Positions 39,701 through 42,700 of a stretch of 64,000 nt of DNA are shown piece after piece. Origin of the DNA: Escherichia coli. Its GTDB lineage: Bacteria; Pseudomonadota; Gammaproteobacteria; Enterobacterales; Enterobacteriaceae. Made by a program: the position numbers. The stretch lies in assembly GCF_003334765.1 (NCBI RefSeq), contig NZ_QOWT01000018.1. One strand, written 5' to 3'. How positions within the stretch are numbered: the first letter of the stretch is position 1; each line of letters starts with the position of its first letter.

Positions 39701-42700
39701 GAGATTCGTGATATGACAGTGAAGGTTAATAACCAACTGGCTAAAGGATAGCGACGTGACGCTGACTGCCAGCTCGGAAAATTTAGTTCTGGATCCTAAA
39801 GGGACGGCGAAAACTAATGAGCAAGGACAGGCTGTTTTCACCGGCTCTACCACTATCGCAGCGACATATACACTCACGGCGAAAGTGGAACAGGCCAACG
39901 GTCAGGTATCGACGAAAACTGCTGAATCTAAATTCGTCGCGGATGATAAAAACGCGGTGCTCGCCGCATCTCCAGAACGTGTAGATTCTCTGGTGGCGGA
40001 CGGGAAGACTACTGCAACAATGACGGTTACCCTGATGGCGGGAGTCAATCCCGTAGGAGGAAGTATGTGGGTCGACATTGAGGCTCCGGAAGGAGTGACG
40101 GAGAAGGATTATCAATTCCTGCCGTCGAAGGCTGACCATTTCTCAGGTGGGAAAATCACGCGTACATTTAGTACCAGCAAGCCAGGTGTCTATACGTTCA
40201 CATTCAACGCACTGACGTATGGCGGGTACGAAATGACGCCTGTGAAGGTGACAATTAACGCCGTTGCTGCAGAGACTGAAAATGGCGAGGAGGAGATGCC
40301 ATAATTTGAATAGTATGAAAGTTACGATCTAATAAAGAATAATGGTGTTGAAATATTCAACGCCATTATTCACTGAATACCTTGCCTGATACTGATTAAA
40401 TAGTATCAGGCAAGGATAAAACTCAATAAGAGATAGTGACCAACTAAACCGGACGAACGGGAATAAAAATTTCGCAAACAACATCATTGCCATCCTTTTC
40501 TACGAAATCTTCATTGTAATAAAAGCGCTCAATATCGCTGCCGTTCACTCTGGCTAACCCCCTGGCAGGTAACTCTATCAGATAGATGTTACGCACCCAG
40601 TCAGGATAATTTTCCCAGTTTCCTTCATAACGGAAAGAGGCATAAAGTCCTCGGGTCGTTGTCCACTCTTTTGGCATGTCAGCATATTCACATACCGTAC
40701 CAGCAAAAGTTTCAACCGTGAGCAAATCGACCGATTTTGTTGACGGTTCAAACGTGGAAACGAAATAGATATCCGTCTTAAAATTCTTCATACATCTGGC
40801 TAAATGATGACGTCGTAGTTTGACTTCTTCATCCGGTGATTTATTCGACACTTCAATGTCATATTTAAATGAGTTGCCAAAAATAGGTGTCTCAGGAAAG
40901 TTGATTAATCTACACTCCGTCTTTTGCTGTTGACGTATTAAAAAAGAAGGGAAGATATTTGCGAGATCCCAATAATCACGGTGGCGGTATTCACGGGGAG
41001 AGCAGCCGAATAACTTTTTAAATTCGCGGCTGAATGACTGCTGTGAATCAAAATGCAAAGAGAGTGCAATATCAAGCATAGATTTCGCGGTGAGCCGGAC
41101 AAGAATGGCGGCACGACAAAGCCTTCGTTTGCGAATGTATTCTCCCAAAGGCACATGCATGAAATTTCGGAACAGAAGCTGGATGTTGCGTCTGCTGTAG
41201 CCAGATTTCTGTGCGATATCTTCGATTGAAATAGGGTGCTCAAGATTGCACTCAATCCACTCCAGGAGCTGCTGTAGAATCTTCTGCCTGATCATCTCAT
41301 TCTCCGTTAATTCTTTGTCATATCGCACATTTTCGTTATACCCTGGGCCCTAAGTGTATCAAAAATAGCAAGGGCGAAGGCAAAAGCACTGGTAGCGTCT
41401 GCTTCGTTGTCCCCGAAAATAGAGAGGTTTCAGTCCTACATTATTAATGAATTTTTTGCATAAGTGATATCAAAATCCACATACTACTTTGAGGTTACGT
41501 TTTAACGTAGACTCATTGTTCATGCCTAATGGAGGGACTGACAGTGGAATTTTCCGTATAGTCTGCTTCAGAGTATTGCAGATGCCCATCAAAAATCGAT
41601 TTCTCACTGACAGATAAAGAAATGGCACAAATTAGTTCGCTTGATTTGGGTTATGTTGGGGAGTCGGTAAAACATTTTAATCCTGAATTTGTTCGTGGTT
41701 GTCTTGCTGTAAAAATACATGATTGATATTAATCATGTATTTTACCTAAGACGACAAAAACCTTTTAACAGGGAGTGATATTGATCTTCACTCTGTCATA
41801 TCTCCGGTAATATGGCGTCAGGCTTCATCATCAGAAAGGGGGCCTGACGCCTGAAAAAGTGAACAACAGACAGTGTTCGGATTATCAATATTCAGTTTTT
41901 AACGTTGAACTGGATTCATTACTGCGTTGTTTAAGAATTTCCCGCGCCGAATCTGCCATTATCATGACTGCACCTGCCAGCATCAGAGTATCTTTCAATA
42001 CCAGGCGACCAGCACCGGATAAATAAGGGAAACCATGATGAGCGTCACCCAATGCGGGTACCCATGCCTCCGGGGTGGTGATTAAAAATGAGAGTGTTAC
42101 CAGCGGCGTGGTAAATGCCATCAGTCCTCCCAATAAACCTAACCAGCGATTGACAGGATTAGCCAAAACCAGCAGAGCAATAATCACCTCCACGACGCCA
42201 AGACCGTTGGAAAAACCATAGGTATTATTGGCCGTTTGCCATGCCCTTGCTTCTGGTTTGTATTCGCCTTCGTGAGTCAGATACTGTTTATAGTCTTCCG
42301 GGTGTTCATAAAAGAACGACATTAGTGGACTGTTTGCGACGAATGGTGTAATGCTGTCTGCCTCGTAAGGGACAAACTTTAATAACCCAATCCACATAAA
42401 AACAATTGCAATACTCAGACGAATCAATGTCAGGCCAATTTTATCTCCCCGACTTAACAGGTGCAGGTATTTTTCCATTGTGAACATCCTTATTTATACA
42501 ATACTGCTGTTGCGGTTGAATTATTATCAATTCGCATCGATGTGACTTTCCAGGATGAAGCATTATATTTTCTGGCTATATCAGCAATGGTATCCTCCAG
42601 AACTGTCGGTGATGCTGATACTGACGAGACGCTGATATGTTTCAGAATTATTTTATCATCTGCATTGGTGGAAAATGCCATAACGCCAGATAATAGTGTT

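What the first reader, a model, noticed from the sequence alone, without database searches (positions are those of the whole stretch)
40346..40415. Strong hairpin and small palindrome between eaeH and ykgA
CCTTGCCTGATACT-GATTAAAT-AGTATCAGGCAAGG (14-bp perfect stem) sits between convergent genes, preceded by the palindrome GTTGAAATATTCAAC and an ATTCACTGAATA motif that resembles the repeat upstream of eaeH. It is a likely bidirectional terminator, but the shared motif hints at a common regulator site on both sides of eaeH.
Basis: seen in the sequence. Interest (0 to 1): 0.3.

Follow-up and report, generated by a model that had tools for sequence, protein, structure and literature searches.

The report
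Tandem terminator hairpins between fdeC and ykgA
Two strong stem-loops sit between the converging E. coli adhesin gene fdeC (eaeH) and the regulator gene ykgA; they look like ordinary transcript-end signals, and the proposed shared regulator motif is a coincidence of one allele.

Summary
The 139-nt spacer between fdeC/eaeH (+, stop 40302-40304) and ykgA (-, stop 40444-40446) holds two hairpins far beyond chance.

- **H1 (40337-40371).** It has a 16-bp stem.
- **H2 (40380-40415).** It has a perfect 14-bp stem.
- **Not a known repeat or RNA family.** The element is single-copy, has no Rfam match and is not a REP. K-12 lacks it because IS3 deleted the region.

H1 is the conserved core. Its arms are nearly invariant across E. 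coli allele classes whose spacers are only 60-71% identical. It has A-rich and U-rich flanks on both strands. It also follows a 67%-identical fdeC paralog on a P1-like plasmid that has no ykgA. A simple scan calls H1 terminator-like on both strands in the HS allele.

H2 has no good U-tract. Four of its 14 pairs nevertheless show compensatory double changes, so its structure is selected. Its 3' arm is missing in about 39% of matching genomes, so it is accessory.

All six one-sided stem changes give G·U on the fdeC strand, a hint (p≈0.03) of RNA-level selection in the fdeC sense.

The "shared motif" with the fdeC upstream region depends on one allele-specific base and is about chance level. Verdict: an ordinary, undescribed bidirectional terminator with an accessory hairpin. 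Interest is low.

The parts
40302..40304 (+). Stop codon (TAA) of fdeC/eaeH. In this window the gene carries an internal stop at about 39752.
40330..40336 (.). Invariant TAATAAA just 5' of H1. On the - strand it reads UUUAUUA, the U-rich tail that follows H1 for ykgA-sense transcripts.
   Evidence: Invariant columns in A1/A3. The - strand tail NTTTATTA has 5 U in 8 in every chromosomal allele.
40337..40371 (.). H1: a 16-bp stem-loop (GAATAATGGTGTTGAA-ATA-TTCAACGCCATTATTC). It has a G/C-containing core (GGYGTTGA/TCAACGCC) flanked by AATAAT/ATTATT. This is the conserved bidirectional terminator-like element.
   Evidence: (I6)
40367..40379 (.). Spacer TATTCAcTGAATA. It is a 6+6 palindrome only in the window allele and overlaps the H1 3' arm.
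40380..40415 (.). H2: a perfect 14-bp stem with an 8-nt loop. This is the accessory hairpin. It shows compensatory covariation between alleles, and its 3' arm is missing in HS/O157-type alleles.
   Evidence: (I10)
40444..40446 (-). Stop codon (TAG on the - strand) of the ykgA-like AraC/GyrI regulator gene.
36408..36438 (+). It is conserved, but it is unrelated to the hairpin region.

Best explanation
The spacer holds the transcript-end signals of the two converging genes.

**H1 is a symmetric, bidirectional intrinsic-type terminator.** It has a G/C-containing core stem flanked by an A-rich run on the 5' side and a U-rich run on the 3' side. It therefore reads the same way on both strands.
- On the - strand it ends ykgA transcripts, with the tail AUUAUU-N-UUUAUUA.
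- On the + strand it ends or pauses fdeC transcripts. Its U-tract there is weaker.
- H1 belongs primarily to the fdeC-family gene, because it travels with that gene.

**H2 is an accessory stem-loop kept by selection on base-pairing.** It most likely acts as a second pause or termination hairpin, proximal to ykgA, and as a backstop for fdeC read-through. It would also block 3'-to-5' exonucleases and so stabilise the transcripts that end at it. Lineages that lost H2 rely on H1 alone.

**What is shown:** the structures, their conservation, the covariation, their single-copy status and the linkage of H1 to the fdeC family.

**What is inferred:** actual termination or 3'-end protection, and which strand uses which hairpin.
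For: - **Position.** H1 starts 33 nt after the fdeC stop, and H2 ends 29 nt before the ykgA stop.
- **Folding.** Both strands fold into the two hairpins: -53.4 and -47.8 kcal/mol, z = -9.3 and -6.2.
- **H1 is a conserved island.** Allele classes differ by 29-40% across the spacer and about 20% in the flanking coding DNA. Ten of the 14 H1 pairs never vary, and the flank TAATAAA is invariant.
- **H1 travels with the fdeC family.** The same arms sit about 30 nt after the stop of an FdeC paralog on E. albertii plasmid p2RM9976 and on two IMG/VR contigs. There the last 300 nt of coding sequence are 67% identical and H1 is 94% identical. No ykgA homolog is present.
- **Terminator scan.** The simple scan calls H1 on both strands in the HS allele.
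- **U-rich tail.** The - strand tail after H1 has 5 U in 8 in every chromosomal allele.
- **H2 covariation.** Four of 14 pairs change on both sides: UA/GC/AU, GC/CG, UA/UG/CG and UA/UG/CG. 93.9% of cells are paired. No shuffle reached the observed covariation score, and the slid controls collapse.
- **Other paralogs.** More distant plasmid paralogs carry a different hairpin about 20 nt after their stop.
- **Same design nearby.** Other convergent junctions in this window carry A/T-flanked perfect palindromes of the same design, at 34644-34680 and 41712-41743.
- **Literature.** Hairpins without canonical U-tracts between convergent E. coli genes are a described class of bidirectional terminator (10.1101/2022.10.23.513370). 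Extragenic hairpins can act as both terminator and stabiliser (10.64898/2026.03.23.713779).
Against: - **No experimental data.** No 3'-end data exist for this locus. K-12 lacks it, and no paper on it was found.
- **Scan misses most alleles.** The simple scan does not call either hairpin in the window, 536 or E69 alleles.
- **Weak + strand tails.** The tail after H1 has only 1-4 U in 8, and the tail after H2 only 2-3.
- **Two lines of evidence disagree on strand.** U-tracts are better on the - strand. All six one-sided stem changes are G·U on the + strand and would be A·C mismatches on the - strand.
- **H2 is dispensable.** Its 3' arm is missing in about 39% of matching genomes (1817 of 4638).
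Confidence: 0.7

Rival explanations
1. The hairpins are a strand-specific RNA module of the fdeC-sense transcript. They would act as a 3'UTR stabiliser or regulatory structure, or as a processed 3'UTR-derived small RNA, and are not primarily a terminator shared with ykgA.
For: - All six independent one-sided stem changes give G·U on the + strand and none gives G·U on the - strand. The sites are H1 columns 10-26, 11-25 and 12-24, and H2 columns 47-78, 55-70 and 58-67.
- 94.4% of cells are paired on the + strand against 89.3% on the - strand.
- + strand folds are up to 10 kcal/mol more stable in B2 alleles.
- H1 follows the fdeC paralog where ykgA is absent.
Against: - Six of six gives only p≈0.03 two-sided. 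All six changes are C-to-T or A-to-G on the + strand, so a strand-biased mutation process could mimic the pattern.
- No U-rich 3' end follows H2 on the + strand, so it lacks the look of an Hfq-type small RNA.
- There is no Rfam match.
- The invariant U-rich flank lies on the - strand side of H1.
Confidence: 0.15
2. The palindromes are DNA binding sites for a dimeric regulator that also binds the ATTCACT/AGTGAAT repeat upstream of fdeC.
For: - 11-mers are shared between the spacer and the upstream region: ATTATTCACTG and ACGCCATTATT.
- TTATTCACTG with up to 1 mismatch occurs 8 times in the window against 3.5 expected.
- Both H1 arms are strongly conserved in sequence.
Against: - A shared 11-mer arises in 10.6% of shuffles.
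- The downstream ATTATTCACTG exists only in the window allele.
- H2 keeps complementarity while changing base identity, with three pair types at one position. That fits nucleic-acid structure, not base-specific protein recognition.
- The site lies at the 3' ends of both genes.
- The upstream region of the plasmid paralog lacks ACGCCATTATT although H1 is present.
Confidence: 0.05
3. The hairpins are remnants of a mobile or repetitive palindromic element, such as a REP/BIME, a MITE or IS ends.
For: - Tandem palindromes in an intergenic spacer resemble BIMEs.
- B2-type H2 ends in CCTAC...GTAGG.
- IS elements are active at this locus: IS3 in K-12, IS1 in strain 504239 and IS630-like ORFs on the plasmid.
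Against: - There is one copy per genome. The two 'places' per genome are the two strands of the same palindrome.
- There are no other copies in plasmids or phages outside fdeC loci.
- The Rfam REP model naRNA4 hits three other sites in the window but not this one.
- No terminal inverted repeats or target-site duplication are evident.
Confidence: 0.03
4. The palindromes have no function. They are kept perfect by DNA-level template switching (quasipalindrome correction), which mimics compensatory change.
For: - Both-side changes restore perfect Watson-Crick pairs.
- The window allele is the only one with a fully perfect H2.
- H2 is dispensable in many lineages.
Against: - G·U intermediates and one mismatch (columns 54-71, in 6 of 7 alleles) persist in alleles carried by more than 1000 genomes, so they are not being corrected.
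- H1 stays conserved across a 67%-identical paralog in a different replicon.
- The positions just after both stop codons fit terminators.
Confidence: 0.05

Closest known systems
Bidirectional terminators between convergent E. coli genes (Ju et al. 2019; Wang et al., bioRxiv 10.1101/2022.10.23.513370)
   Same: It lies between a convergent gene pair. Its hairpin forms on both strands. The U-tracts are imperfect. H1 is symmetric, with A-rich and U-rich flanks.
   Different: No mapped overlapping 3' ends exist here, because K-12, where that class was defined, lacks the locus. There are two hairpins in tandem rather than one.
Canonical Rho-independent (intrinsic) terminator
   Same: A stem-loop of -16 to -18 kcal/mol sits 19-34 nt after a stop codon. 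The U-rich tail on the - strand has 5 U in 8. In the HS allele both strands pass a simple consensus scan.
   Different: The + strand tail is poor in most alleles. The outer third of the stem is itself the A/U tract. H2 has no real U-tract on either strand.
REP/BIME extragenic palindromes acting as 3'UTR terminator-stabilisers (10.64898/2026.03.23.713779)
   Same: These are tandem stable extragenic hairpins at 3' ends, some of them between convergent genes. The proposed dual role of limiting read-through and blocking 3' exonucleases is plausible for H2.
   Different: The element is not repetitive, being single-copy. It does not match the REP consensus, and the Rfam REP model does not hit it.

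Membership tests
Rho-independent (intrinsic) terminator | Stable G/C-containing stem-loop shortly downstream of a stop codon | tested here: met
   H1 folds at -16.3 to -18.1 kcal/mol on the + strand and -12.4 to -19.0 on the - strand. It starts 19-34 nt after the fdeC stop. H2 folds at -17.7 to -27.7 kcal/mol and lies 29 nt from the ykgA stop.
Rho-independent (intrinsic) terminator | U-rich tract of about 7-9 nt immediately 3' of the stem | tested here: inconclusive
   On the - strand, H1 has 5 U in 8 in all chromosomal alleles. On the + strand it has 1-4 in 8. H2 has 2-3 on the + strand and 4-5 on the - strand. The scan calls H1 on both strands in the HS allele only.
Rho-independent (intrinsic) terminator | Transcript 3' ends mapped at the end of the U-tract | not testable with these tools
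   No 3'-end data were found for this locus, and it is absent from K-12.
Bidirectional terminator of convergent genes | Located between convergent genes, with a hairpin on both strands | tested here: met
Bidirectional terminator of convergent genes | Overlapping 3' ends of the two convergent transcripts at the hairpin | not testable with these tools
   This needs SEnd-seq or Term-seq in a strain that carries the locus.
REP/BIME | Many copies per genome with the REP consensus | tested here: not met
   There is one site per genome. The Rfam model naRNA4 hits 1572, 4901 and 5643 in the window, but not this site.
Curated small RNA or cis-regulatory RNA family (Rfam 15) | Match at or above a family's gathering score | tested here: not met
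   Only generic hairpin matches to eukaryotic miRNA models appear, far below threshold.
Transcription-factor operator shared with the fdeC promoter region | Motif conserved at both sites across alleles and more frequent than chance | tested here: not met
Structured RNA under selection (covariation) | Compensatory double substitutions that keep base pairs | tested here: met
   H2 has 4 of 14 pairs with both-side changes, and no shuffle reaches the covariation score. H1 has none, only 3 G·U one-sided changes. The sample is small, at 7 distinct alleles.

The most novel reading that the evidence does not exclude
H1 and H2 form an fdeC-sense RNA module, acting as a 3'UTR stabiliser or regulatory hairpin pair, possibly processed into a stable 3'UTR fragment. 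Under this reading the lineage-specific loss of H2 (about 39% of genomes) or its strengthening (a perfect stem in the window type) tunes expression of the FdeC adhesin, and antisense pressure on ykgA, between E. coli lineages.
Probability: 0.15. Interest if true: 0.45.

Novelty: new member of a known kind. Interest (0 to 1): 0.2.

Why it matters
FdeC/EaeH is a widely conserved E. coli adhesin and a vaccine candidate. Its 3' flank has not been described, because K-12 lost the region to an IS3-associated deletion.

If the hairpins work as proposed, they set where fdeC and ykgA transcripts end and how much antisense read-through each gene receives. The presence or absence of H2 would then be a natural, non-coding expression variant among lineages.

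Beyond that, this is a routine terminator annotation. The compensatory changes in H2 within a single species are a neat but small example of structure-preserving evolution.

Tried and rejected
- **Rfam.** The search at gathering score and at E up to 10 found no family here.
- **Repeat family.** Searches of E. coli genomes, plasmids, phages and viral contigs found a single copy only. The sole non-chromosomal copies follow an fdeC paralog.
- **Shared regulator motif.** It is at chance level and specific to one allele.
- **Pairing between the fdeC 5'UTR and H1.** I noticed that a fdeC 5'UTR hairpin loop at 36653-36676 shares ACGCCATTATT with the H1 3' arm. It is absent upstream of the plasmid paralog and has a chance probability of about 0.1, so I dropped it.
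- **Small ORF.** The 54-aa ORF at 40329-40493 on the - strand is not conserved across alleles. It is absent in HS and O157 and changes frame elsewhere.
- **Wider species sampling.** The genome-contig scan with YkgA gave only three relevant loci: Escherichia sp. E1V33, E. whittamii and E. coli E69. The protein search with the FdeC C-terminus returned mostly fragments. It still yielded one new allele (L035) through the look-up of encoding contigs.
- **Literature.** Searches for fdeC/eaeH terminators, small RNAs or Term-seq data at this locus found nothing specific. Easton et al. 2014 is not held in the library.

Full report
**1. Observation**

The window region is the E. coli ykgM–ykgR–fdeC(eaeH)–ykgA–rclCBA neighbourhood.
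- fdeC runs on the + strand from 36713 to 40304. In this strain it carries an internal stop near 39752 and is about 660 nt shorter than the usual 4254-nt gene.
- The ykgA-like AraC/GyrI regulator gene runs on the - strand and ends at 40444.

The 'small palindrome' is the tip of a larger hairpin, H1. Its arms lie at 40337-40352 and 40356-40371: 16 bp with one G·T. The perfect 14-bp hairpin H2 follows at 40380-40415.

The region folds far better than shuffled sequence on both strands, with z = -9.3 and -6.2. Perfect hairpins with arms of 12 bp or more number 4 in the window and 0 in 20 shuffles.

**2. What it is not**

- No Rfam family matches. There are only sub-threshold generic hairpin hits, while the REP model naRNA4 finds three true REPs elsewhere in the window.
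- The element is single-copy in every E. coli genome that has it. The 'two places' are the two strands of the palindrome.
- It is absent from phages, and from plasmids except where an fdeC gene is present.
- No small ORF across it is conserved.
- K-12 MG1655 lacks it entirely. IS3A replaces the 3' part of eaeH, the spacer and the 3' end of ykgA. K-12 transcriptome maps therefore say nothing about it.

**3. Comparative anatomy**

The fdeC 3' end, the spacer and the ykgA 3' end exist as deeply diverged allele classes within E. coli.
- The window type matches at 99% or more in about 1480 complete genomes.
- A B2 type (536, ST131) is present in about 1380 genomes.
- An HS/O157 type is present in about 1820 genomes.
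- Between classes, the last 400 nt of fdeC are 77-82% identical and the spacer 60-71%. The fdeC upstream region, in contrast, averages 96% column identity.

Further alleles came from Escherichia sp. E1V33, E. whittamii, E. coli E69 and a metagenome contig, L035.

H1 is present in all of them. Ten of its 14 scored pairs never vary, as does the adjacent TAATAAA.

H2 is present in the window, E1V33, B2, whittamii, E69 and L035 alleles. In the HS/O157 class only a relic of the 5' arm (TTGCCTGA) remains and the 3' arm is gone. H2 is therefore ancestral and dispensable.

**4. Evidence for selection on structure**

In seven distinct H2-bearing alleles, four of the 14 H2 pairs change on both sides while staying paired: UA/GC/AU, GC/CG, UA/UG/CG and UA/UG/CG.
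- No shuffle out of 500 reached the observed covariation score.
- The slid-partner controls collapse to 30-53% pairing against 94% for the true structure.
- RNAalifold independently returns the same two helices.

H1 shows no double changes, only three one-sided changes.

All six one-sided stem changes, three in H1 and three in H2, are G·U on the fdeC (+) strand and would be A·C mismatches on the ykgA (-) strand. Pairing is 94.4% on the + strand against 89.3% on the - strand. In B2 alleles the + strand fold is about 10 kcal/mol more stable. Six of six gives p≈0.03 two-sided. This is suggestive only. All six changes are C-to-T or A-to-G on the + strand, so a strand-biased mutation process cannot be excluded.

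**5. Which gene owns H1**

An FdeC paralog sits on the IncY, P1-like plasmid p2RM9976 of E. albertii and on two IMG/VR contigs. Its last 300 nt of coding sequence are 66-68% identical to chromosomal fdeC.
- About 30 nt after its stop it carries H1 with identical arms (31 of 33 nt identical to the HS allele).
- The spacer before H1 is about 60% identical, and the sequence after it is unalignable.
- No ykgA homolog is present there. IS630-like ORFs follow instead.
- More distant plasmid paralogs carry a different hairpin, CCACCTCC-TCTG-GAGGTGG, about 20 nt after their stop.

H1 is therefore the 3' element of the fdeC family. A hairpin right after the stop is a general feature of these genes.

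**6. Terminator features**

H1 is symmetric: TAATAAA-N-AATAAT-GGCGTTGA-loop-TCAACGCC-ATTATT-N-A-N-TGAAT.
- On the - strand, the 8 nt after the full stem contain 5 U in every chromosomal allele.
- On the + strand they contain 1-4 U.
- H2 is followed by 2-3 U on the + strand and 4-5 on the - strand.
- The tool's simple consensus scan calls H1 terminator-like on both strands in the HS allele. It calls neither hairpin in the window, 536 or E69 alleles. The likely reasons are an A·C mismatch, inner-loop irregularities or a G·T stem extension that shifts the tail window.

Other convergent junctions in the window carry the same kind of A/T-flanked perfect palindrome. One lies between ykgL and ykgO at 34644-34680, and one between ykgQ and rclC at 41712-41743.

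The literature describes hairpins between convergent E. coli genes that terminate bidirectionally without a canonical intrinsic signature. It also describes extragenic palindromes that act as both read-through limiters and mRNA stabilisers.

**7. Interpretation**

The best reading, at about 0.7 confidence, has two parts.
- H1 is a bidirectional intrinsic-type terminator that belongs to fdeC and also serves ykgA.
- H2 is an accessory hairpin under selection for its structure. It would act as a second pause or termination site and as a block to 3' exonucleases. It is lost without replacement in about 39% of matching genomes.

The main unresolved point is strand usage. The U-tracts favour the ykgA strand, while G·U tolerance and linkage favour the fdeC strand. 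The simplest reconciliation is use in both directions. The more novel alternative, at about 0.15, is an fdeC-sense 3'UTR module.

**8.

- The 11-mer ATTATTCACTG is shared with the upstream repeat at 36428, and ACGCCATTATT with 36656. A longest shared word of 11 nt or more arises in 10.6% of shuffles.
- The downstream copy exists only in the window allele.
- The genome-window frequency of the motif is near expectation.
- The plasmid paralog has H1 but no upstream ACGCCATTATT.

The upstream repeat itself is conserved and may be a real promoter-region site. It is not linked to the hairpins.

**9. Verdict**

This is a real, non-random, previously undescribed but ordinary feature: a new member of a known kind. 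Interest is about 0.2.

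Noticed in passing
window 36408-36438: A conserved AT-rich repeat lies about 290 nt upstream of the fdeC start. It has a direct repeat TTATTCACT x2 around an 8-2-8 inverted repeat TGAATAAT-GA-ATTATTCA. The inverted repeat is perfect in the HS, O157 and 536 alleles and has one mismatch (TGAATAGT) in the window. It looks like an operator and is loosely Fur-box-like. fdeC is reported to be H-NS- and temperature-regulated.
   Followed up: partly
window 36653-36676: A hairpin GCAGAC-gccattatttgt-GTCTGC sits in the fdeC 5' leader. Its loop shares the 11-mer ACGCCATTATT with the H1 3' arm, so it is complementary to the H1 5' arm. The chance probability is about 0.1, and the motif is absent upstream of the plasmid paralog, so it is probably a coincidence.
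   Followed up: yes
window 34644-34680, 41712-41743, 42797-42824, 36600-36625: Four more perfect palindromes, with arms of 15, 13, 11 and 11 bp. The first two are A/T-flanked and lie between convergent genes (ykgL/ykgO and ykgQ/rclC), so they are likely bidirectional terminators of the same design as H1. The third lies between rclA and rclB. The fourth is in the fdeC 5' region.
   Followed up: partly
window 36713-40304: fdeC in this strain is a pseudogene. It has an internal stop at about 39752 and is about 660 nt shorter than the 4254-nt gene of HS or O157. Related strains show other lesions: an IS1 insertion in strain 504239, a large deletion in BL21(DE3) and an IS3 deletion in K-12.
   Followed up: partly
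window ~39900-40850 versus loci L002, L006, L012: The fdeC 3' end, the spacer and the ykgA 3' end form deeply diverged allele classes within E. coli: 77-82%, 60-71% and 79-96% identity. The fdeC upstream region averages 96% column identity. This is a sharp boundary of ancient allelic or recombinational divergence centred on the adhesin C-terminus.
   Followed up: partly
L025 (E. albertii plasmid p2RM9976, 1-3540); L027, L028 (IMG/VR contigs): A roughly 1211-aa FdeC-like inverse autotransporter, with its H1 hairpin, is carried on an IncY, P1-like phage-plasmid next to IS630-like transposase ORFs. The adhesin gene therefore moves on a phage-plasmid together with its terminator.
   Followed up: partly
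window 25967-26166; 1572-1649, 4901-4978, 5643-5720; 19535-19607: Rfam matches elsewhere in the window: IS009, three REP-derived naRNA4 copies and one tRNA.
   Followed up: no
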